Part shown: positions 4,496 to 15,484 of the stretch, in pieces
How positions within the stretch are numbered: the first letter of the stretch is position 1
Layout: the number at the start of each line of letters is the position of its first letter
Assembly (NCBI GenBank): GCA_963716475.1
Contig: OY970314.1
Location: 138,479 to 202,478, forward strand
Source: Candidatus Woesebacteria bacterium
GTDB lineage: Bacteria; Patescibacteriota; Microgenomatia; UBA8517
Length of the DNA stretch: 64,000 nucleotides
Direction: 5' to 3'
Made by a program: the position numbers and the translations under genes
Notes under the pieces: model-generated
What the model was told of the DNA's origin: nothing
Database searches by the model: none
What the model saw: the letters and a program-made list of their open reading frames with translations, nothing else

Positions 4496-4903
4496 ATGGA
4501 TCAAATTTTTAACAATCTTTATTCAAAAAAAGTAATTGACCATTTCAGACATCCGCGGAATATGGGAATGATCAAAAACGCGGACGGTGTTGCAATGGTG
4601 GGGAATCCGGTTTGCGGAGATATTATGAAATTTTACATTAAGGTTGAAAAGAAAAAGGGGACTTCCTATCTCAAGGATGTGAAGTTCCAGACACTAGGCT
4701 GCGGGGCAGCGATAGCGACTTCAAGCATGATGACAGTCCTTGTTAAAGGAAAGAAATTGTCCGAGGCCGAAGAGGTTTCGAAAAAAGCAATAGTGGAAGC
4801 TTTGGGGGGCCTGCCGGCCGTAAAAATTCATTGTTCGGTACTGGCAGACGAGGGATTAAAAAAGGCAATTGCTAATTATAAGTTGAAAGAGGCAAGAGAT
4901 TAA
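4496..4903 (+). CDS. iscU: Fe-S cluster assembly scaffold IscU/NifU N-terminal-domain protein
   Basis: Three conserved Cys (GNPVCGD, LGCGAAIA, HCSVLA) and typical length. Confidence 0.85.
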   Translation: MDQIFNNLYSKKVIDHFRHPRNMGMIKNADGVAMVGNPVCGDIMKFYIKVEKKKGTSYLKDVKFQTLGCGAAIATSSMMTVLVKGKKLSEAEEVSKKAIVEALGGLPAVKIHCSVLADEGLKKAIANYKLKEARD

Positions 4904-4931
4904 AGAATCTCCGCTAGATGAACACAGGGAA

Positions 4932-6002
4932 TTGTTATATATTGAATCTATGCTGCCAGCCTTAAAACATTTCATCAAGTATCACCTCGACAGACAAAGA
5001 CTACTTTACACGAGCCTAATTGTTGTTTTTGCGACTCTATCAATGTCACTTTATTGGGTCGCACTTAAGGAGACCCGTGTTACTTTAAGTGATGAGTTTC
5101 TTCATCGGGAGCAGGTAATTGCAAGGTCGGGTAGCCAATCTATTTCTGGGTTTATTAATCTTCTTGGTAAAAGTGTAGCACTTAGAGCGGAAGATTTTTC
5201 TGCGGGTTCAAACTTGAATGATATGCAGACTGACATAAATACTTTTATGGATCATTGGAGGGATACTCCGGCTGCTGCCATTCTTCTGGCTGATAAAAAT
5301 GGGAAAGTCATTGCCCAAGCAAACAGGGCTGGAGTTCCCGATACAGGCAGTATTCTTGCAGATAAGCTATTTTTTAATTGGGCAAAGACTGCAAATAAAG
5401 GAGAATACTTCATTGGATCTCCCGGAGTGGGGATGCTCGGATACGTTAAAGGAAAATATATCTTTAATGTTGCATCACCGGTGGTTGTAAACGGGAAATT
5501 TAACGGAGTAATTTCTGTAGCAGTAATTTTAGGCGATCTTACTGATTATTACATCACCCCCATTAAAATATCTGATAGTACCAGGATGTTTTTGTTTGAT
5601 CAAAACGGTATCGTTCTTAGTTCTTTGGCAAGCAATCTGGTTGGGACAAATTACTTTGACTTCTTATCGGGATACTCCTATCCGGGTTTAGATAAAATTG
5701 TCAGTGAACTTAGAATGGCCATGATATCATCCGACAGTGAGGGCAAGCTTGATATCAGCCTGCCTGACTCCCTAACCCCCACGACTGTGGGTGAGTTTCT
5801 TGTTGCCTATTCGAAAGTGAAAGCCGGGGACAATAGTTGGCTACTCGTTATCAAATCTCCGAAAAGCGACTCCGATGCATATCTTTGGAGAATTAGAGAT
5901 GTTATTTATAGCGCTCTAGTTTTTACACTGGTTCTTGTATTATTATTCTCAATAACTAATCTGCGGGCCGAGATACATCGAAGGAAGCAAAACTCAACCT
6001 GA
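4932..6002 (+). CDS. Hypothetical membrane protein with a large extracytoplasmic Cache-like sensor domain flanked by two TM helices and no output domain
   Basis: N-terminal TM (LIVVFATLSMSLYWVAL), about 270 aa of non-hydrophobic domain, a C-terminal TM (VIYSALVFTLVLVLLF) and an 11-aa basic tail. Confidence 0.5.
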   Translation: MLYIESMLPALKHFIKYHLDRQRLLYTSLIVVFATLSMSLYWVALKETRVTLSDEFLHREQVIARSGSQSISGFINLLGKSVALRAEDFSAGSNLNDMQTDINTFMDHWRDTPAAAILLADKNGKVIAQANRAGVPDTGSILADKLFFNWAKTANKGEYFIGSPGVGMLGYVKGKYIFNVASPVVVNGKFNGVISVAVILGDLTDYYITPIKISDSTRMFLFDQNGIVLSSLASNLVGTNYFDFLSGYSYPGLDKIVSELRMAMISSDSEGKLDISLPDSLTPTTVGEFLVAYSKVKAGDNSWLLVIKSPKSDSDAYLWRIRDVIYSALVFTLVLVLLFSITNLRAEIHRRKQNST

Positions 6003-6006
6003 TCAT

Positions 6007-6258
6007 ATGATACAGCAAAATCCTCTTTGGTTTAGGGCTCTCAGGATGATTATTAAGCTTCTGATACCCTTAATATTCTTAACAACGGGTCTGGCTCTCC
6101 TGTATTTAGCAATCCCAGGGTGGAGTTTGATAGTCGGAATTCCCTCCGTAATCTTTGGTATAGTTTTCCTTTTATATACCTATGACGAGATATCCAGCCA
6201 GTCCAATTTTGATGAAGGGTTGGAAAACGGGAAACATCAAAAAGAATTGCTTCAATAG
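6007..6258 (+). CDS. Small two-TM membrane protein, hypothetical
   Basis: Two hydrophobic helices (LLIPLIFLTTGLALLYLAI, IVGIPSVIFGIVFLLY). Tightly follows the previous gene. Confidence 0.4.
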   Translation: MIQQNPLWFRALRMIIKLLIPLIFLTTGLALLYLAIPGWSLIVGIPSVIFGIVFLLYTYDEISSQSNFDEGLENGKHQKELLQ

Positions 6259-6315
6259 GTTGGTGATTTCGTACCCCAAATGATATAATATGCCTACTTT
6301 CAAGAAATTTATCCC

Positions 6316-7206
6316 ATGCGAAAACTAATAGTCCTATTGTTTTTGGTGGTATTGGCTGTTGGAGTACTTAAGCCGATGGGGGTGCTTGCCGTGGTTTCTT
6401 CCCGCACCCCTGCGCCTACGCCGACCCCAACACCAATGGCTCTTGTCACGCCCGAGCCGGCCCGCGTGGATATTACCCAAAAAAGTGTGGAAACCTTAGG
6501 CCCTCTGGAGAAACTCCTTAAGGAGCAGACACTGGGTTCAGTTTGGCCGTTGAACCCTGTTAAATATGCGATTCGTTCGTCAGTTGCTTCCGGAGTTCCT
6601 GCAAATACGATAGTTTTACTTTTGCTTTTACCGATAGTTGCTTTTGTTATTGCCTTTACAAGGAACGTAATCGGAATTAGGGGGTTCGGAATTTTTCTTC
6701 CCGCCGCTTTATCTGTTGTTTTTGTAGCCATGGGGCCAATTGTCGGAATAGGACTTTTTTTGGTAATTGTCATAGTCTCCACTGCCATGAGGATGATTCT
6801 TAGAAAACTAAAGGTTAAACTCCAATACCTACCCAGGATGGCTTTTATTCTTTGGGCGGTGGTACTCGGGGTTTTGGGAGTTCTTTTCCTGGCTCCGGTT
6901 CTGAAGTTTTCGGATCTTGCCAACGTTTCTATTTTTGCGGTCCTTTTCCTGGTGCTTTTGGCAGAGGACTTTACCCGCGTTCAGCTGGGTAAGAGCGTCA
7001 AAACAGCCATAAATCTAACCTTTGAAACACTAATATTATCTTTAATTTCGTTCCTATTTCTTACTTTCCAGCCGCTGCAAAGATATGTACTTCTTAACCC
7101 TGAAATATCCCTTTTGGTAATTGCTGTGGCCGATCTTCTTCTTGGAAAATATACCGGCCTCAGGGTTATGGAGTTTTACAGATTCAGAAAGCTTATCAGA
7201 AGCTAA
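6316..7206 (+). CDS. Polytopic membrane protein (signal-anchor, Pro/Thr linker, then 7 TM helices); resembles the 7TM module found with RimK-like ligase/retropepsin systems
   Basis: Hydrophobicity pattern shows one N-terminal helix, a TPAPTPTPTP linker, then seven helices. The stop lies 4 nt before the ATP-grasp gene start. Confidence 0.6.
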   Translation: MRKLIVLLFLVVLAVGVLKPMGVLAVVSSRTPAPTPTPTPMALVTPEPARVDITQKSVETLGPLEKLLKEQTLGSVWPLNPVKYAIRSSVASGVPANTIVLLLLLPIVAFVIAFTRNVIGIRGFGIFLPAALSVVFVAMGPIVGIGLFLVIVIVSTAMRMILRKLKVKLQYLPRMAFILWAVVLGVLGVLFLAPVLKFSDLANVSIFAVLFLVLLAEDFTRVQLGKSVKTAINLTFETLILSLISFLFLTFQPLQRYVLLNPEISLLVIAVADLLLGKYTGLRVMEFYRFRKLIRS

Positions 7207-7210
7207 AAAA

Positions 7211-8503
7211 ATGAAAATATCCTCAATTTTGGGGTTAAATGCCAGAACTCAGTTATTTGCCTATAGGTATAATACTAAACGTGGAAAAGATATTGCTGAT
7301 TCCAAGATTCAGACAACCAGAATCTTGAGAAAAGCCGGAGTAGCGCACCCCAAAATTTACAAGAAGTTTTTTGATCCTAATGATGTCTTTGAATTTGACT
7401 GGACAACCCTCCCGGATAAATTTGCTCTTAAGCCCAGCCGGGGAATGGGAGGGGAAGGAATAATAGTTGTTAAGAAACGTTTGAAGGATGGAGGGTGGTT
7501 AACTACGCAGAAAGACCGAATTAAGATTGACGATCTGAAGCTCCACGTATTGGACACTCTGGAAGGAGCATATTCTATGGGAAACGTACCCGATGTTGCT
7601 TTCGTTCAGGAATATGTAGGGAGGGCTAAAGCCTTCAGAAGGTGGGCCTACAGGGGAACCCCTGACATCCGTATTATTGTGTTTAATAAGGTTCCTGTAA
7701 TGGCCATGCTTCGTTTACCGACTAGAGAAAGCGGTGGAAGGGCTAATTTGCATCAGGGGGCTATTGGTGTGGGTGTTGACATCGCTACAGGCATTACTAC
7801 AAAGGCAATCTGGCACGGTGAACAAATTATATTTAAGCCCGGTACGGAAAGAAAACTTAGGGGAATAAAAATTCCCAGCTGGACGTTGGTTTTGGAAACC
7901 GCCGTTGCTGCACAAATTGCTTCGGGACTTGGGTATGCAGGGGTGGACATCGTGATTCACCCGGAAAAGGGGCCGATGGTACTAGAGCTTAATGCGCAGC
8001 CCGGACTTCAGATACAACTAGCCAATATGGAGGGTCTTAAAAAACGACTGGAGCGGGTGGAAGACCTTGACGTTGTTGATGCACAACATGGGGTTATGAT
8101 TGCCAAAGCAATATTCGCCGGGAGATTTGAAAACAGGAGAGCAGTAGAGGAAGGAATAAAAACCCTTAAAAGTTTGGAAGAAGTTAAGATTTACAGTTTT
8201 GATAAATCCAAAAAAGCGAAGGTTTTGGCCCGTATCGATACGGGGGCCGTAAGAAGCTCCATCGATAAAAAACTTGCTGGAGAGTTAGGACTCTTGGTTA
8301 AAGAGAATGTATTGTGGAAAGACAGGGGGTATAGATCTGCAACAGGTCGGGAAACACGTCCTGTAATAGGAGTACAGTATGTGATAGCCGGCAAAAAAAT
8401 CAAGTCCTCAGTATCCGTTGCCGATAGGTCGAAAATGTCAACCCGGTTTCTCATAGGAAGGAGCGATATGGCAGGGTTTTTAATTAATCCAAACGCGGAA
8501 TGA
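7211..8503 (+). CDS. Alpha-L-glutamate ligase-like (RimK-related) ATP-grasp enzyme fused to a C-terminal retropepsin-like aspartyl-protease domain (DUF785, the mis-named ATP-dependent zinc protease family)
   Basis: N-terminal ILGLNARTQLFAYRYN...DSKIQTTRIL resembles the RimK-related E-ligase family. ATP-grasp core KPSRGMGGEGIIVV...VLELNAQPG. C-terminal KAKVLARIDTGAVRSS...RPVIG...VADRSKMSTRFLIGRSDMAGF matches the retropepsin-like DTGA fold. Start moved to the ATG at 7211. Confidence 0.75.
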   Translation: MKISSILGLNARTQLFAYRYNTKRGKDIADSKIQTTRILRKAGVAHPKIYKKFFDPNDVFEFDWTTLPDKFALKPSRGMGGEGIIVVKKRLKDGGWLTTQKDRIKIDDLKLHVLDTLEGAYSMGNVPDVAFVQEYVGRAKAFRRWAYRGTPDIRIIVFNKVPVMAMLRLPTRESGGRANLHQGAIGVGVDIATGITTKAIWHGEQIIFKPGTERKLRGIKIPSWTLVLETAVAAQIASGLGYAGVDIVIHPEKGPMVLELNAQPGLQIQLANMEGLKKRLERVEDLDVVDAQHGVMIAKAIFAGRFENRRAVEEGIKTLKSLEEVKIYSFDKSKKAKVLARIDTGAVRSSIDKKLAGELGLLVKENVLWKDRGYRSATGRETRPVIGVQYVIAGKKIKSSVSVADRSKMSTRFLIGRSDMAGFLINPNAE

Positions 8504-10341
8504 CAAAAAGAAAAAAGATATTAATCATAGTTGGGGGAGGGACGAAGCACCTTTCTACATTTGGATTGGAGGGTAGAAAACTTGGAATAGATGTAACACT
8601 GGCGTCTTTTTCCGATTTGGAATACGACTTTAAAGGTACCGATAAGGAATTTGCGATTACGGTGAGTGGGAAAGACTTGGCCAATTTCGATGTAATTTAT
8701 TTCAGGTTGGTGGGCAAAAGGTTGGAGGATGCTTCAATTGTTGCAAATTATGCAAAGGGAAAACGAATAAAAATAGTTGACAAAATATACAAAAAATCTC
8801 AATTTATCCGTCTTCCTTTGACTAAGGGTCTGGAAACAAAACTCTTGTTTGAGCAAGGGCTTCCTGTTCCAAGGACATTATTCTTGTCGTTACACGAGAT
8901 GGCAAAAAAAGCTCCGGAGCTGCTTGGTTTCCCGTTTGTTATCAAGGGCACTAACGGTAAACAAGGTCATGCGGTGTGGTTGCCGGAAAGCTTGGGTGAA
9001 TTAAAAAGACTTGTCAAGGATTTGGGCCCTCGCGAAACTTTGGGAGAAAGGTTTCTGGCACAGCAGTTTATAAAAGCTAGTATTAGGATTAGGGTGTTTG
9101 TGATAGGAGGTAAAGCCAGGGCTGCCATCGTGAGACCTACAAGATGGAGAAGCCGATTCGATAGAGGTGAACCTTTAAGATTGAGCTACAAGAAAGTTCC
9201 GTTAAAGTATGCGCAAGTTGCCGAAAAGGCAGCCAAGTCATTGTACATTGATATAGCTGGGGTTGATTTGCTGGAGGATATAGATAAAAAATTATACGTA
9301 CTGGAAGTGAATTCGGCACCGCGTTGGGACTCAATTGAAAAGGATACGGGGTTGAATGTAGAAAGGGAGATTCTCAAGTTTTTAATCACCGTCAAACCTG
9401 AGCGTAAGATATTGATGGATGAGTTTGCCAAAAAGGCTGTTAAGTTTGGATATACCGTCAGAGAGTATCTATCAGATAAAAGAGTTTACGAGGTTTCAAA
9501 AAATGGAAAGATTGCAATAACAATTAGTAAACATTTTCCGCTAAATACAGTCGTAGGGTCTCAACTGGCAAAAAGGAAGAACCTGACAAAACAAATTCTA
9601 AAAAAAGCCGGCATACCGATTCCTAACGGAATTTTAACCGACAACTGGAACGAGGTTTTGCAATCATTAAATACAGGGAAAATCAGTTTTCCTTTAGTTG
9701 CCAAGCCTGATACATCCTCGTTGGGGAAATTTGTCGCTGCAAAAATTGAAGACCCGGCGGATTTAAAAGCAGTTTTCGAAAGAATAAGAAAGAAATTTGG
9801 AACTGTTTTGATAGAGGAATATATTAGTGGGGAAGAATATCGCTTCTTGGTTCTGGATGGTAAAGTCTTGGCCGTTGCCCATAGAATTTTGCCTTTTGTC
9901 ATCAGCGACGGGAAGTCAAAAATTTCGGAGTTAATAGACGGTTATAATAAAGGAAGGATAGAACCTTTGATACTTGGGTATGAGGTGGAGAGAGTCCTTG
10001 GCAAACAGGGATTTGATTACAATAGCATTCCGGAGAGCGGACAAAAAATTCTTCTGAGAAGTAATTCGAATGCCCATACGGGAGGAAAGGTTGAAAATCC
10101 TATCGGTAAAGTTCACTCGAAATATTTTGAGACAGCTATTAAAGCAACGGAAACTTTAGGTTTGAGGTTTTGTGGCGTTGATATTATAACGGAAGATATA
10201 ATGAGTGGAGAGTCCAGATATTTTGTTATCGAGCTTAATGCCGATCCGGGGTATGATTTGCATTGGGAAACTGAAAACGGGGGTAAGTATGATGCTACAG
10301 AAGATATCCTAAATACGTTATTTTCGGACAAATCTGCATAA
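8500..10341 (+). CDS. Tandem double ATP-grasp ligase: N-terminal RimK-like module plus C-terminal cyanophycin-synthetase-N-terminal-like ATP-grasp module
   Basis: Module 1: FPFVIKGTNGKQGHAVW...YVLEVNSAPRW. Module 2: FPLVAKPDTSSLGKFV...ISDGKSKISELIDG...YFVIELNADPG. 4-nt overlap with the upstream gene. Confidence 0.7.
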   Translation: MTKRKKILIIVGGGTKHLSTFGLEGRKLGIDVTLASFSDLEYDFKGTDKEFAITVSGKDLANFDVIYFRLVGKRLEDASIVANYAKGKRIKIVDKIYKKSQFIRLPLTKGLETKLLFEQGLPVPRTLFLSLHEMAKKAPELLGFPFVIKGTNGKQGHAVWLPESLGELKRLVKDLGPRETLGERFLAQQFIKASIRIRVFVIGGKARAAIVRPTRWRSRFDRGEPLRLSYKKVPLKYAQVAEKAAKSLYIDIAGVDLLEDIDKKLYVLEVNSAPRWDSIEKDTGLNVEREILKFLITVKPERKILMDEFAKKAVKFGYTVREYLSDKRVYEVSKNGKIAITISKHFPLNTVVGSQLAKRKNLTKQILKKAGIPIPNGILTDNWNEVLQSLNTGKISFPLVAKPDTSSLGKFVAAKIEDPADLKAVFERIRKKFGTVLIEEYISGEEYRFLVLDGKVLAVAHRILPFVISDGKSKISELIDGYNKGRIEPLILGYEVERVLGKQGFDYNSIPESGQKILLRSNSNAHTGGKVENPIGKVHSKYFETAIKATETLGLRFCGVDIITEDIMSGESRYFVIELNADPGYDLHWETENGGKYDATEDILNTLFSDKSA

Positions 10342-10423
10342 TATAGTTACTCTTCATTCTGTGAAAATATTGTAATTTTCACAATCCAAATATAATACGA
10401 AGGATATATTTTATCCACAAAAA

Positions 10424-10452
10424 ATCCGTCACGTTTAAGACGGATTTTTTGT
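10424..10452. terminator. Bidirectional rho-independent terminator between the ligase gene (+) and rplL (-)
   Basis: aaaATCCGTCacgtttaaGACGGATtttttt: a 7-bp stem with an A-run upstream and a T-run downstream. Confidence 0.6.
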
Positions 10453-10508
10453 TGTAGACCCAAATAAGTTATTTGAATTCTACGGCGTCACCGCCGAGAG
10501 TGAAAGTC

Positions 10509-10922
10509 TTATTTGAGCTCTACAGTTGCTCCAGCTGCTTTCAATTTCTCTGATGCGCTTTTAGCGTCTTCCGCTTTAGCGTCTTTGAGAACTTCAGCCG
10601 GGAGCGTTTCGGTCATTCCTTTCGCATCCATTAAAGTCAGATTGGGATTAATTTCCCTTAAAGCTTTAATAACAGCAATTTTATTTGCACCCGAAACTGT
10701 CATGGTAACTGTTTGGTTAGCACTACCTGCATCAGCTGCTTGGGCTTCCGCCCCTGCCGCCACCGGAGCTGCCACCGCTGCCGCAACGGGCATGGCTCCA
10801 CTAACTCCAAGTTTTTCCTGCAGAGCACTAACTAACTCCGAAAGTTCCAAAACCGAAAGTTTTGCAACTTCCTCAACCATTTTCTCTACTTTTCCCGATA
10901 CTTTTTTTGATTCTTCTGCCAT
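10509..10922 (-). CDS. rplL: 50S ribosomal protein L7/L12
   Basis: N-terminal dimerisation helix, Ala/Val-rich hinge, conserved C-terminal domain (KIAVIKALREI...GATVELK). Confidence 0.9.
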   Translation of the reverse strand: MAEESKKVSGKVEKMVEEVAKLSVLELSELVSALQEKLGVSGAMPVAAAVAAPVAAGAEAQAADAGSANQTVTMTVSGANKIAVIKALREINPNLTLMDAKGMTETLPAEVLKDAKAEDAKSASEKLKAAGATVELK

Positions 10923-14170: not shown

Positions 14171-15484
14171 ATGGATTTTGTCGGCTGTGGTATCATATTT
14201 GCACAAATGCCAAACATAGAACGAAAACATGTTCCGGAGATTCCGGGAGTGAAAAAGGGTGGAGAATTTTTTAAGGGAAAGTCCCCAGAGATAGCGGGGC
14301 AGGAATTGGCTTCCCGAAGACGGCTGGAATTTGGTGAAACACCACTCGACCTTTGCTTTGTCGACAATTTTAAAGCGGAATATCTGAATATGCCTGTATT
14401 AGGCAGGGGCGAGGAACCGCTTACAAAAGCAAATTTTTGGGAACCCAGAGTCCACAGGGTTAACGGAAGTGTGATTACTTGGCGTTGGGAAAAGCGAGAT
14501 TCCGAGAGGCGCGATTTTTCCGGTTATACGGCATTCGCTGGTAACAAGATTGATTCAAAATTTAAATATTCGGAAATTCCGGTTAGTTGGAAAGTTGCCG
14601 TACTTGTTCCTCAGGTAGTCAAAGACGGAATTGAGGCTGCCATGCGTCAACAAGACGAGATTGCCCATGACTACCGTGCAGGTGTCGGCCCCGAAGCGGA
14701 TCGCGTAGACGAGACTTTTGATCTACTTTTTAACATAAGTGCTGTTTTTGCTGCCGGAGAAATCGAAGATCAATCAAAGTTAAACCTAAAAGCACGAGAG
14801 GCGGAATCCGTTTTAAGAGACAACGGTTTATTGGAAAGCAAAGATGAGATATGGAGACGTATTGTCAATTTTACACTTGATGCTACAAAAGAGGATCGTA
14901 TGGGTAGGATAAACCCCCTTGTATCACGTGTCCGGACGAGAGCAGCTTTTCTGGCCGCAACCGAAAGAGAAATGATCGGGAGGAGTGTTGGAACCAAAGC
15001 CGAGAAAGTATACCAACATCTGGCAATAATTAGATCCGGAATACGGGCGAAAATGCAAATGGCCGTAGATACCCTTGATGATATCTATGGTCTAACAAGA
15101 AGAAGAGTCGCTAAAGATATTGCCATGCGGGAGAGAAAAATTACCTGTTCAACCGAAGAGTCTTTAGATCTGGAACAATATGCGTTGACAGTTGCAAATG
15201 AAGTTTTACGAGGAATCCAACCCGCACCATATTTAGTTCCGGTTACAGCGGCCAGAATTATCCTGGCGGGAGAAAAGGCATATAAAAATGGGCAGGAGGA
15301 AATTACTGTTAGGCGGATTCTGGGGGGGAATGATTATATTAAATTTTTAAACGACTCGGCAGCCAGACAGGCGAGAGAACGTAAACCATTAGTTGTCGAA
15401 CCAAGGGTACGTCTTGCCCATGACATTCTTAAACAAAGTCTTAACGATCCGAGAACAACAGATTTAAAAGTTTTTGATAGATGA
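14171..15484 (+). CDS. Hypothetical soluble protein, 437 aa, no recognisable domain
   Basis: Long uninterrupted ORF with coding-like composition. Divergent from secE. No motif I can assign. Confidence 0.5.
   Translation: MDFVGCGIIFAQMPNIERKHVPEIPGVKKGGEFFKGKSPEIAGQELASRRRLEFGETPLDLCFVDNFKAEYLNMPVLGRGEEPLTKANFWEPRVHRVNGSVITWRWEKRDSERRDFSGYTAFAGNKIDSKFKYSEIPVSWKVAVLVPQVVKDGIEAAMRQQDEIAHDYRAGVGPEADRVDETFDLLFNISAVFAAGEIEDQSKLNLKAREAESVLRDNGLLESKDEIWRRIVNFTLDATKEDRMGRINPLVSRVRTRAAFLAATEREMIGRSVGTKAEKVYQHLAIIRSGIRAKMQMAVDTLDDIYGLTRRRVAKDIAMRERKITCSTEESLDLEQYALTVANEVLRGIQPAPYLVPVTAARIILAGEKAYKNGQEEITVRRILGGNDYIKFLNDSAARQARERKPLVVEPRVRLAHDILKQSLNDPRTTDLKVFDR

What the first reader, a model, noticed from the sequence alone, without database searches (positions are those of the whole stretch)
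8500..10341. Di-domain ATP-grasp protein (RimK-like plus CphA-N-like)
Two ATP-grasp modules in one polypeptide is unusual outside carbamoyl-phosphate synthetase. The second module carries the ISDGKSKISELIDG-type motif of the cyanophycin synthetase N-terminal Asp-ligase domain. This suggests synthesis of a mixed or branched poly-amino-acid (cyanophycin-like or poly-Glu/Asp) rather than single-residue addition.
Basis: inference. Interest (0 to 1): 0.6.

Follow-up and report, generated by a model that had tools for sequence, protein, structure and literature searches.

The report
Fused double ATP-grasp peptide ligase
A tiny-genome (Microgenomates/Woesebacteria) bacterium encodes one protein made by fusing two neighbouring ATP-driven peptide-bond-forming enzymes inside an operon related to the Pseudomonas rlo stress-tolerance genes; it is a rare new arrangement of known enzyme types, not a cyanophycin synthetase, and its product is unknown.

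Summary
ORF 8500-10341 (+) encodes a 613-aa cytoplasmic protein with two complete ATP-grasp modules. Residues 1-296 are RimK-like. Residues 297-613 have the fold of the cyanophycin-synthetase G domain, which is shared with the GshF ATP-grasp module (TM 0.85 to TeCphA1; Ddl and RimK only 0.46-0.60).

Both catalytic sites are invariant in all fused orthologues. It is not a cyanophycin synthetase: the N and M domains are absent, and the cyanophycin/Asp-recognition residues are changed. In particular, the Arg that holds the incoming Asp carboxylate is an invariant Asp (D586).

The protein is a gene fusion. In a syntenic relative (L088) the halves are two separate genes overlapping by ATGA, each about 50% identical to its half. 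Only one 50%-identity cluster among 1.84 billion representatives is fused.

The gene ends a three-gene operon with an RloB-like 7TM protein and an RloC-like ATP-grasp fused to a retropepsin. In relatives this last slot is a variable cassette: d1|d2, d2+DUF3541, d1+methyltransferase.

Best reading (inferred): a two-site amidoligase that makes two successive ATP-dependent additions to the Glu-rich product of the rlo-like core. Domain 2 would add a non-acidic, possibly cationic, residue. This is a new variant of a known kind, of moderate interest.

The parts
6316..7206 (+). First gene of the operon: an RloB-like membrane protein. It has a signal/anchor segment, a Pro/Thr-rich linker and a 7TM_transglut domain, with no transglutaminase-like domain.
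   Evidence: Pfam PF14402 at 90 bits. NCBIfam RloB NF052267 matches only the C-terminal positions 312-507 of 508, at 56 bits against a cut-off of 900. The same gene is in the same position in L001/L003, L002, L004, L084, L085, L086 and L088.
7211..8185 (+). Second gene, N-terminal part: an RloC-like ('alpha-L-glutamate ligase-like') ATP-grasp, about residues 1-325.
   Evidence: Pfam ATPgrasp_ST PF14397 at 219 bits. NCBIfam TIGR02291 at 270.7 bits, against a cut-off of 314.2. The start ATG at 7211 lies 4 nt after the upstream stop.
8186..8503 (+). Second gene, C-terminal part: a RimB/RloA-like retropepsin domain containing a DTGA motif.
   Evidence: Pfam PF05618 at 29 bits. NCBIfam RloA3 at 27 bits, below its cut-off. 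'ARIDTGAVRSS' is visible in the translation. The domain is conserved in relatives.
8500..9387 (+). Domain 1 of the di-domain protein (residues 1-296): a RimK-like ATP-grasp including its pre-ATP-grasp subdomain.
   Evidence: Pfam RimK at 85.8 bits and rimK_fam at 117.6 bits, below the 143.4 cut-off. Foldseek TMt 0.81 to E. coli RimK 5zct. K109, K149, R198, D256, E269 and N271 are conserved. The domain is 51% identical to the stand-alone 292-aa gene of L088.
9388..10341 (+). Domain 2 (residues 297-613): a G-type ATP-grasp with the CphA G-domain / GshF-module fold (Gcore + Glid + G-omega).
   Evidence: TIGR02068 at 197 bits, profile positions 204-474. The AF2 model has pLDDT 90.5 and TMq 0.85 with rmsd 2.9 A to 7wae. 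K360, K402, R448, R462, D561, E578 and N580 are invariant. The domain is 50% identical to the stand-alone 314-aa gene of L088.
10255..10257 (+). Codon of Asp586, in the 'PGYDLH' motif. It sits at the position of TeCphA1 Arg458.
   Evidence: The translation reads DPGYDLHW. Arg458 binds the alpha-carboxylate of the incoming Asp in TeCphA1 (PMC9427784). Asp is invariant in the fused proteins and nearly invariant in 18 family members. CphA1 has Arg here and GshF has His/Gln/Asn.
8500..8503 (+). ATGA overlap of the stop and start codons between the RloC-like/retropepsin gene and the di-domain gene, consistent with translational coupling within one operon.
   Evidence: Sequence read. The frame arithmetic from 7211 was checked directly.

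Best explanation
Shown:
- The 613-aa protein is a lineage-specific fusion of two adjacent amidoligase genes. One is a RimK-like ATP-grasp (d1) and the other a CphA-G/GshF-type ATP-grasp (d2).
- These genes form the variable last slot of an rlo-like operon in Microgenomates (candidate phyla radiation, CPR) bacteria. The operon core is an RloB-like 7TM protein plus an RloC-like ATP-grasp fused to a poly-Glu-type retropepsin.
- Both active sites are intact, and the protein is soluble and cytoplasmic.

Inferred:
- The protein works as a two-site, ribosome-independent peptide ligase.
- Each site phosphorylates a carboxylate (acyl-phosphate) and couples an amine to it. The enzyme therefore makes two successive additions to the same growing product, most likely the Glu-rich peptide or tail handled by the rlo-like core.
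- d1 keeps RimK's Arg and Asn contacts for an acidic chain end, so it would add or extend Glu-type residues.
- In d2 the Arg that holds the incoming amino acid's alpha-carboxylate in CphA1 is replaced by an invariant Asp. d2 would therefore add a different, non-acidic (possibly cationic or amine-type) residue.
- Fusion secures 1:1 stoichiometry and hand-over between the two steps.
- The product could be a short capped peptide or an alternating co-polymer. It is not cyanophycin.
For: Architecture and fold.

Active sites invariant in six fused orthologues: d1 has K149, D256, E269 and N271; d2 has K360, K402, R448, D561, E578 and N580.

Fusion origin:
- In L088/L089 the syntenic locus carries separate d1 (292 aa, 51% identical to residues 5-295) and d2 (314 aa, 50% identical to residues 298-611) genes overlapping by ATGA.
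- In L083 the d1 C-terminus, a stop codon, 10 bp and a d2 start follow one another.
- The exhaustive search of 1.84 billion representatives found one fused cluster, while dozens of stand-alone d1-like and d2-like proteins scored 270-409 bits.

Operon: the 7TM gene, the RloC-like/retropepsin gene and this gene are 4 nt apart and overlapping. They are conserved in L001/L003, L002, L004, L084-L090.

Functional link of the core to poly-Glu: P. aeruginosa RloA cleaves Glu-rich substrates, and rloB/rloC are epistatic to rloA (PMC12239564).

Specificity sites: TeCphA1 residue roles come from PMC9427784, mapped. RimK poly-Glu contacts R64, R189 and N262 (PMC10092738) are conserved as R69, R198 and N271.

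d2 belongs to its own clade (100/100 NJ bootstrap), distinct from the CphA1 and GshF clades.
Against: - No substrate or product is identified. All chemistry beyond 'ATP-grasp carboxylate-amine ligase' is inference from homologous residues.
- d1 lacks RimK's 'RSNLHRGG' loop ('RSRFDRGE', variable in the family). Scored alone it falls below the NCBIfam RimK-family cut-off.
- The two halves are not obligate partners. d2 more often sits next to DUF3541 without d1 (L004, L086, L087, L090, L092). d1 occurs without d2 (L085, L094).
- More distant CPR stand-alone relatives with the same Asp have no rlo-like neighbours.
- The inter-domain geometry of the full-length model is unreliable (pTM 0.49).
Confidence: 0.55

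Rival explanations
1. Cyanophycin-like synthetase. Domain 2 extends a poly-Asp-type backbone as the CphA1 G domain does, and domain 1 adds the second monomer. The result would be a branched or mixed storage polymer.
For: The best HMM, PDB and structural matches of d2 are CphA1 G domains. Catalytic R448 (R309), R462 (R323) and N524 (N394) are conserved. Two alternating ligase sites in one chain is how CphA1 works.
Against: There is no M (Mur-ligase-like) domain and no N domain. TIGR02068 scores 197 against a cut-off of 850. The primer and Asp recognition residues E215, H267, S396 and R458 are not conserved, and R458 becomes an invariant Asp. R323 and N394 are also conserved in GshF, so they do not indicate Asp specificity. 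d2 forms a clade separate from CphA1. RimK-type enzymes extend chain ends and are not known to build side-chain branches (established knowledge of the family).
Confidence: 0.08
2. GshF-like small-molecule synthetase. The two sites make a di- or tripeptide-like metabolite in two steps, for example an osmolyte or thiol analogue. The RimK-like module would take the role that glutamate-cysteine ligase has in GshF or that GNAT has in Ngg.
For: In every characterised fusion of a G-type module (GshF, Ngg, CphA1) the partner domain makes or handles the module's substrate. This rests on established knowledge plus the family hits. The closest non-family sequence relatives of d2 are short 'GCL-like + ATP-grasp' proteins at 143 bits. 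The Ngg product is an osmoprotectant, and rlo genes affect osmotic tolerance (PMC12239564).
Against: The GshF-type signature residues (A456, H/Q458, Y/F267) are not shared. The gene is tightly coupled to a poly-Glu-type ligase/protease pair and a 7TM protein, not to metabolite pathways. Accessory genes in relatives (a second RimK-like gene, another ATP-grasp, an HExxH protein) look more like peptide-chain tailoring.
Confidence: 0.17
3. Protein C-terminal tagging. As RimK does on ribosomal protein S6, one or both modules add residues to the C-terminus of a specific protein, possibly the 7TM protein's cytoplasmic tail or a ribosomal protein. The retropepsin would trim the tag.
For: d1 is structurally RimK/LysX/ArgX-like. 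Those enzymes all act on protein C-termini (RpsF, LysW), which is established knowledge supported by the PDB titles. The RimK-RimB logic of adding and trimming is mirrored by the fused ATP-grasp/retropepsin gene. The operon always lies beside the rplL-rplJ-rplA-rplK cluster.
Against: The ribosomal genes are convergent and this is shared synteny among close relatives, so it carries no weight. No rpsF is present in the window. No conserved small acidic-tailed ORF accompanies the operon. RimK N-terminal contacts S7 and R8 are replaced by Gly-Gly.
Confidence: 0.15
4. Artefact or decayed fusion. Either the single ORF results from an assembly or sequencing error across two genes, or one module is an inactive scaffold.
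For: Split versions exist in relatives. P0003 carries an internal deletion in d1.
Against: There are six fused sequences at 48-100% identity from independent assemblies, with in-frame linkers of different length. All ATP- and Mg-binding residues of both modules are invariant. Both halves diverge equally from the L088 pair, at 51% and 50%.
Confidence: 0.03

Closest known systems
Cyanophycin synthetase 1 (CphA1) G domain (e.g. TeCphA1, PDB 7wac/7wae)
   Same: d2 covers the whole G domain (Gcore + Glid + G-omega). TMq is 0.85 with rmsd 2.9 A, and sequence identity is about 26%. It has the same ATP, Mg and acyl-phosphate residues: K220, K261, R309, R323, N394, D431, E450, N452 and G456.
   Different: There is no N domain and no M domain. 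E215, H267, S396 and R458 are changed, with R458 becoming an invariant Asp. d2 lies in a separate clade with 100% bootstrap. It is fused to a RimK-like module instead.
GshF (GshAB) C-terminal ATP-grasp module (PDB 3ln6/3ln7)
   Same: It has the same G-type fold (TMq 0.79). The design principle is the same: a G-type module fused behind the enzyme that makes its substrate, giving two sequential ATP-dependent ligations in one chain.
   Different: The partner here is a RimK-like ATP-grasp, not a glutamate-cysteine ligase. GshF signature residues (Y/F267, A456, H/Q458) are not shared. NF002688 scores 157 against a cut-off of 425.
RimK (ribosomal protein S6 poly-alpha-L-glutamate ligase) and the RimK/LysX/ArgX/MptN/CofF family
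   Same: d1 has the full RimK fold (TMt 0.81). It keeps the ATP- and Mg-binding residues and three of the poly-Glu contacts (R64, R189, N262).
   Different: d1 is about 21-24% identical. Alone it scores 117.6, below the 143.4 family cut-off, and 55 against 331 for the RimK equivalog. The 'RSNLHRGG' loop is replaced by a variable loop, and the S7/R8 contacts are lost. It is fused to a second ligase.
rlo operon of Pseudomonas aeruginosa (RloA retropepsin, RloB inactive-transglutaminase 7TM protein, RloC ATP-grasp; PMC12239564) and the RimABK system
   Same: The same three protein types sit in one operon: a 7TM_transglut membrane protein, an alpha-L-glutamate-ligase-like ATP-grasp and a retropepsin.
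   Different: The retropepsin is fused to the ATP-grasp, so it is cytoplasmic with no signal peptide. The 7TM protein lacks the transglutaminase-like domain. All three score below the NCBIfam Rlo cut-offs. Extra ligase genes (d1, d2) are appended. The host is a CPR bacterium, not a gammaproteobacterium.
Carbamoyl-phosphate synthetase large subunit, and metagenomic multi-G-type ATP-grasp proteins with an acylphosphatase domain (P0078, P0086, P0113)
   Same: They carry more than one ATP-grasp module in a single polypeptide.
   Different: In CPS and the giant proteins the repeated modules are paralogues of one family. Here two different ATP-grasp families are joined.

Membership tests
Cyanophycin synthetase (CphA1, TIGR02068) | Three-domain architecture N + G + M (a Mur-ligase-like Arg-adding domain) and the curated full-length score | tested here: not met
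   Only the G-domain positions 204-474 of 862 are matched. The score is 197 (domain alone) or 235 (whole protein) against a cut-off of 850. There is no Mur_ligase or CphA_N Pfam hit.
Cyanophycin synthetase (CphA1, TIGR02068) | Residues that recognise the (beta-Asp-Arg) primer and the incoming Asp: E215, H267, S396 and R458 (PMC9427784) | tested here: not met
   These are Q/K/E355, L/S/T408, H/S526 and an invariant D586 in the fused family. The CphA1 sequences in the same alignment keep D/E, H, S and R.
G-type ATP-grasp clade (CphA G domain / GshF module / Ngg module) | Gcore + Glid + G-omega fold with the catalytic set K220, K261, R309, R323, N394, D431, E450 and N452 | tested here: met
   The domain-2 model (pLDDT 90.5) scores TMq 0.75-0.85 to CphA1, GshF and CphA2, against 0.46-0.60 to Ddl and RimK. 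All eight residues are conserved.
GshF / GshAB bifunctional glutathione synthetase (NF002688) | N-terminal glutamate-cysteine ligase domain plus the curated score | tested here: not met
   There is no Glu_cys_ligase Pfam hit. NF002688 scores 157-167 against a cut-off of 425, matching only positions 486-754.
RimK family alpha-L-glutamate ligases (TIGR00768; Pfam PF08443) | Curated family score for the domain on its own | tested here: inconclusive
   Pfam RimK domain scores 85.8 against 21, so it is met. NCBIfam rimK_fam scores 117.6 against a cut-off of 143.4 when d1 is scored alone, so it is not met. The 189.5 obtained for the whole protein summed stretches from both modules.
RimK proper (S6-L-glutamate ligase, PRK10446) | Equivalog score; 'RSNLHRGG' substrate loop; an S6 substrate with an acidic C-terminus | tested here: not met
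   The score is 55 against 331. The loop is replaced. No rpsF lies in the window, and the substrate cannot be tested.
rlo operon (RloA/RloB/RloC; NCBIfam NF052267, TIGR02291, NF052264) | RloB with a transglutaminase-like domain plus 7TM; an RloC equivalog; a secreted RloA retropepsin | tested here: not met
   The RloB model is matched only over its 7TM part, at 56 bits against 900. TIGR02291 scores 270.7 against 314.2. RloA3 scores 27 against 210, and the retropepsin is fused to the cytoplasmic ligase without a signal peptide. It works like an rlo/Rim module but is not a member by the curated thresholds.
ATP-grasp carboxylate-amine ligase superfamily (both modules) | Two ATP-binding Lys residues and the Asp/Glu/Asn Mg2+ triad in each module | tested here: met
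   d1 has K109, K149, D256, E269 and N271. d2 has K360, K402, D561, E578 and N580. All are invariant or conserved. Enzymatic activity itself cannot be tested with these tools.

The most novel reading that the evidence does not exclude
The operon may be a minimal ribosome-independent peptide assembly system with three different ATP-grasp sites (RloC-like, d1, d2) and a built-in trimming protease. In this reading the fused d1-d2 enzyme alternates two additions, as CphA1 alternates its G and M sites. It would build a previously undescribed mixed-charge co-polymer or capped peptide, with acidic residues from d1. A cationic or amine-type residue would come from d2, because of the Arg-to-Asp switch at the nucleophile pocket. 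The 7TM RloB-like protein would then export or anchor the product. If so, these CPR cassettes would reveal what kind of molecule rlo-type systems make, which is currently unknown even in Pseudomonas.
Probability: 0.15. Interest if true: 0.75.

Novelty: new variant of a known kind. Interest (0 to 1): 0.45.

Why it matters
rlo-type operons (a 7TM 'inactive transglutaminase' protein, an ATP-grasp and a retropepsin) affect osmotic tolerance, cell shape, biofilm formation and beta-lactam sensitivity in Pseudomonas. Their biochemical product is unknown (PMC12239564).

The Microgenomates version links that core, by operon membership and by a gene fusion, to two further amidoligases of recognisable types. 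This argues that the system's product is a peptide chain that can be extended and tailored. It also offers compact, soluble enzymes (a fused form and a natural split pair) for in-vitro reconstitution.

The work defines a CPR-specific clade of CphA-G/GshF-type ligases with a charge-reversed nucleophile pocket. That pocket gives a concrete, testable specificity hypothesis.

If none of this holds, the finding is still a clean example of gene fusion and fission in a variable accessory cassette.

Tried and rejected
- Promoter/terminator scan of 4700-10700: counts were no higher than in shuffled sequence, so it is uninformative for operon limits.
- Search for rpsF (the RimK substrate) and for paralogues of any operon protein elsewhere in the window: none found.
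It was repeated with 5 sequences.
- Conserved neighbours of the more distant CPR stand-alone relatives that share Asp at the R458 position: none beyond chance.
- The 165-aa ORF after the stand-alone d1 gene in L094 was tested as a possible d2 remnant: no similarity.
- DUF3541, the usual partner of d2 in relatives: no PDB relative, no NCBIfam hit and no paper.
- Literature searches for this fusion, for tandem ATP-grasp proteins and for ATP-grasp/cyanophycin in CPR found nothing relevant. Iyer et al. 2009 on amidoligases is not in the library and is recalled from memory only.
- I first took rimK_fam at 189.5 bits as passing its cut-off. I rejected this after per-domain scoring gave 117.6.
- The full-length AF2 model (pTM 0.49) was not used for inter-domain geometry.


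Full report
**1. What is there**

The window carries an uninterrupted ORF at exactly the stated coordinates, 8500-10341 (+), 613 aa. Its ATG overlaps the TGA of the upstream gene (ATGA at 8500-8503). That upstream gene starts at ATG 7211, 4 nt after the stop of the gene before it. So 6316-7206, 7211-8503 and 8500-10341 form one tightly packed operon. It ends convergently against rplL (10509-10922, minus strand). The protein has no transmembrane segment.

**2. Two ATP-grasp modules, checked per domain**

Residues 1-298, scored alone:
- Pfam RimK PF08443 at 85.8 bits.
- NCBIfam rimK_fam at 117.6 bits, LysX 86, MptN 80 and RimK proper 55.

The 189.5 bits that rimK_fam gave for the whole protein summed stretches from both modules. 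On its own the first module is below the 143.4 cut-off.

Residues 299-613, scored alone:
- Cyanophycin synthetase TIGR02068 positions 204-474 of 862, at 197 bits.
- GshAB C-terminal module at 157 bits.
- N-acetylglutaminylglutamine synthetase at 122 bits.
- Ddl at 53 bits.

Against PDB sequences the second half matches CphA1 7wac residues 200-480 (E 2e-35), GshAB 3ln6 (E 2.5e-25) and CphA2 7ta5. The first half matches RimK 5zct/4iwx (E 1e-13) and LysX/ArgX.

A full-length AF2 model from six sequences was mediocre (pLDDT 71, pTM 0.49). Its halves still hit RimK (TMt 0.81) and CphA1/GshF.

A domain-2 model built on 18 family members is confident (pLDDT 90.5, pTM 0.88). It superposes on substrate-bound TeCphA1 with TMq 0.85 and rmsd 2.9 A. 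It gives 0.79 on GshF and 0.75 on CphA2, but only 0.46-0.51 on Ddl and 0.56-0.60 on RimK.

**3. Are both sites alive, and what do the specificity positions say?**

In the alignment of six fused orthologues (48-100% identity) the ATP and Mg residues of both modules are invariant. Module 1 has K149, D256, E269 and N271. Module 2 has K360, K402, R448, D561, E578 and N580.

For module 2, I mapped the residues given functional roles in TeCphA1 (PMC9427784) through the HMMER alignment and a 72-sequence alignment.
- The catalytic set is kept: K220, K261, R309, R323, N394, D431, E450, N452 and G456. It is equally kept in GshF, so it says nothing about Asp specificity.
- The positions that recognise cyanophycin and the incoming Asp are not kept:
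  - E215 is Q/K/E.
  - H267 is L/S/T.
  - S396 is H (S in one orthologue).
  - R458, which binds the alpha-carboxylate of the incoming Asp, is an invariant Asp (D586, codon 10255-10257).
- CphA1 sequences in the same table have D/E, H, S and R. GshF-type sequences have F/L, Y/F, S and H/Q.

The Asp is nearly invariant in 18 stand-alone family members. It also occurs in more distant stand-alone relatives from Saccharibacteria, Parcubacteria, Moranbacteria and Andersenbacteria.

A neighbour-joining tree puts the fused and stand-alone 'Asp-type' sequences in one clade (100/100 bootstraps). That clade is separate from CphA1, GshF and two other groups, with no supported sister.

For module 1, the RimK poly-Glu contacts R64, R189 and N262 (PMC10092738) correspond to invariant R69, R198 and N271. 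S7/R8 are Gly-Gly. RimK's 'RSNLHRGG' loop is replaced by 'RSRFDRGE', and that region is length-variable across 18 d1-like proteins.

**4. It is a gene fusion**

The word-indexed search of 5.8 billion proteins found only five other full-length matches. One is annotated from a Candidatus Woesebacteria MAG and another is named 'RimK family alpha-L-glutamate ligase'.

The exhaustive profile search of 1.84 billion cluster representatives found a single fused representative. The next-best hits were stand-alone proteins of about 300 aa. They match only residues ~300-610 (up to 409 bits) or only residues ~2-296 (up to 381 bits).

Genomic evidence for the split form:
- In L088/L089 (two NCBI assemblies) the locus is syntenic with the window. 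It reads 7TM gene, RloC-like/retropepsin gene, a 292-aa d1 gene, a 314-aa d2 gene overlapping it by ATGA, then rplL.
- The d1 and d2 genes of L088 are 51% and 50% identical to window residues 5-295 and 298-611.
- In L083 the end of a d1-like gene ('...EVNSAPRWDSI...EILKFLLEK*') is followed after 10 bp by a d2-like start.
- The fused linker ('ITVKPERK') sits exactly at that junction.

In the rough tree the fused forms are not monophyletic. Fusion or fission may have happened more than once. This needs a proper phylogeny.

**5. Context: an rlo-like core with a variable ligase cassette**

Gene 1 (6316-7206) is a 7TM_transglut protein that matches only the 7TM part of RloB. Gene 2 is an ATPgrasp_ST / TIGR02291 'alpha-L-glutamate ligase-like' enzyme (270.7 bits, cut-off 314.2). 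It is fused to a RimB/RloA-like retropepsin with a DTGA motif.

In P. aeruginosa, RloA retropepsins cleave Glu-rich substrates. Loss of rloB or rloC suppresses the rloA triple-mutant phenotypes. The product of the system is unknown (PMC12239564).

In Microgenomates relatives the two core genes are constant, but the slot before rplL varies:

| Loci | Content of the slot before rplL |
|---|---|
| window, L001/L003, L002 | fused d1-d2 |
| L088, L083 | d1, then d2 as separate genes |
| L084 | d1, methyltransferase, two small ORFs, d2, a second RimK-like gene |
| L085 | d1, then an unrelated ATP-grasp |
| L094 | d1, then an unrelated 165-aa ORF |
| L086, L087, L090, L092/93 | d2, then DUF3541 |
| L004 | DUF3541, d2, then an HExxH protein |

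A d1-methyltransferase fusion also exists (P0006). More distant Asp-type relatives in other CPR phyla have no conserved neighbours.

**6. Most likely mechanism**

Shown:
- There are two intact carboxylate-amine ligase sites of different families in one cytoplasmic chain.
- The chain was created by fusing adjacent genes.
- The gene is translationally coupled to a poly-Glu-type ligase/protease pair and a 7TM protein.

Inferred from the families:
- RimK-family and G-type enzymes all activate a carboxylate at the end of a peptide-like acceptor and add an amino acid. Examples are RimK on S6 or poly-Glu, the CphA1 G domain on the cyanophycin C-terminus, GshF on gamma-Glu-Cys and Ngg on N-acetyl-Gln.
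- The fused enzyme therefore most plausibly performs two successive additions on one product, probably the Glu-rich chain of the rlo-like core.
- Module 1 would handle acidic residues.
- Module 2 would add a residue that does not present an alpha-carboxylate to position 458, possibly a cationic or amine-type nucleophile.

Whether the outcome is a capped short peptide, an alternating co-polymer or a protein tag cannot be decided here.

Points against tight coupling: each module occurs without the other in some relatives, and module 1 lacks a loop that is conserved in RimK.

**7. Comparison and novelty**

By tested criteria the protein is not a cyanophycin synthetase, not GshF and not RimK proper. 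The operon is rlo-like, not an rlo member by the NCBIfam cut-offs.

Multi-ATP-grasp polypeptides are not rare. The exhaustive search returned many proteins with 2-4 matched stretches. Three that were scanned carry two or three G-type modules plus an acylphosphatase domain.

What is new is the pairing of a RimK-like module with a G-type module, and the Asp-type G clade itself. The third new element is the link of both to an rlo-like core in CPR bacteria. I found no paper describing any of these. I rate it a new variant of a known kind, of moderate interest (0.45).

Noticed in passing
Proteins P0078, P0086, P0093, P0098, P0099, P0108, P0110, P0113: These are giant metagenomic proteins (870-1490 aa) with 2-4 stretches matching the ATP-grasp profile. 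The three scanned with Pfam (P0078, P0086, P0113) carry two or three G-type modules plus an acylphosphatase domain. P0078 also has an LPG_synthase_C-like N-terminus. They look like multi-module ATP-grasp 'assembly lines'.
   Followed up: partly
L033, L037, L038, L042 (Evansella, Lacicoccus, Virgibacillus, Salinicoccus), whole loci; L031 (Legionella) 6110-10417: Bacillales genomes carry arrays of four to five tandem paralogous genes (about 500-620 aa each), every one containing a G-type ATP-grasp module. A Legionella locus has three paralogues in a row.
   Followed up: no
L004 5964-6977; L086 5912-6949; L087 1737-2699; L090 2691-3659; L092 2426-3394: DUF3541 (PF12060) is the most frequent neighbour of the stand-alone domain-2-type gene. 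It occupies the place that the RimK-like module has in the window. It has no PDB relative, no NCBIfam model and no paper.
   Followed up: partly
P0006 (501 aa); L084 4898-6368: The RimK-like d1 gene is fused to a SAM-dependent methyltransferase in one metagenomic protein. In L084 it is followed by a separate methyltransferase gene. This is a second 'Rosetta-stone' link for this cassette.
   Followed up: partly
L004 7897-9966: A 689-aa protein with an HEIEGH (HExxH) metallopeptidase-like motif lies directly downstream of the d2-like gene. It has no Pfam hit, and the sequence is interrupted by a run of N.
   Followed up: no
window 4932-6002 and 6007-6258: A dCache_1 extracellular-sensor-type protein with no recognisable output domain is followed by an 83-aa two-helix membrane protein, immediately upstream of the operon. 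The same pair precedes the operon in L084 (1287-2584) but not in L001, L002 or L088.
   Followed up: partly
Proteins P0007-P0037 (570-595 aa): This is a large group of short 'Glu_cys_ligase-like + ATP-grasp_6' proteins, much shorter than GshF (about 750 aa). They have their own signature at the specificity positions (I215, Y267, S458, N460). They are the closest non-family sequence relatives of domain 2.
   Followed up: no
L005-L010, L015, L017, L021, L027, L036 (about 330-380-aa ORFs at the match): Stand-alone G-type ATP-grasp genes with Asp at the CphA1 R458 position occur across CPR phyla (Saccharibacteria, Parcubacteria, Moranbacteria, Andersenbacteria). They have no rlo-like genes and no conserved neighbour within 4.5 kb.
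   Followed up: yes
P0049, P0060 (491 aa); P0051, P0057 (337-338 aa): Another CPR group of G-type ATP-grasps keeps the CphA1-like H267, T392, S396, G456 and R458 signature. Some are fused to a C-terminal retropepsin (PF05618). They are candidates for true poly-Asp-type chemistry.
   Followed up: no
L094 3-389: The retropepsin domain of this relative reads DTAA instead of DTGA at the catalytic motif.
   Followed up: no
L084 6378-7000; L002 5056-5674 (-); L085 4307-4931 (-): A pair of small ORFs (about 121-123 aa and 84-88 aa; a weak PIN hit in L085) sits inside or just after the cassette in three relatives. It is probably a toxin-antitoxin insertion.
   Followed up: no
window 14171-15484: A 437-aa ORF of unknown function lies between secE and the RNase HII gene. 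An unannotated 375-aa gene occupies the same position in L084 (12967-14094).
   Followed up: no
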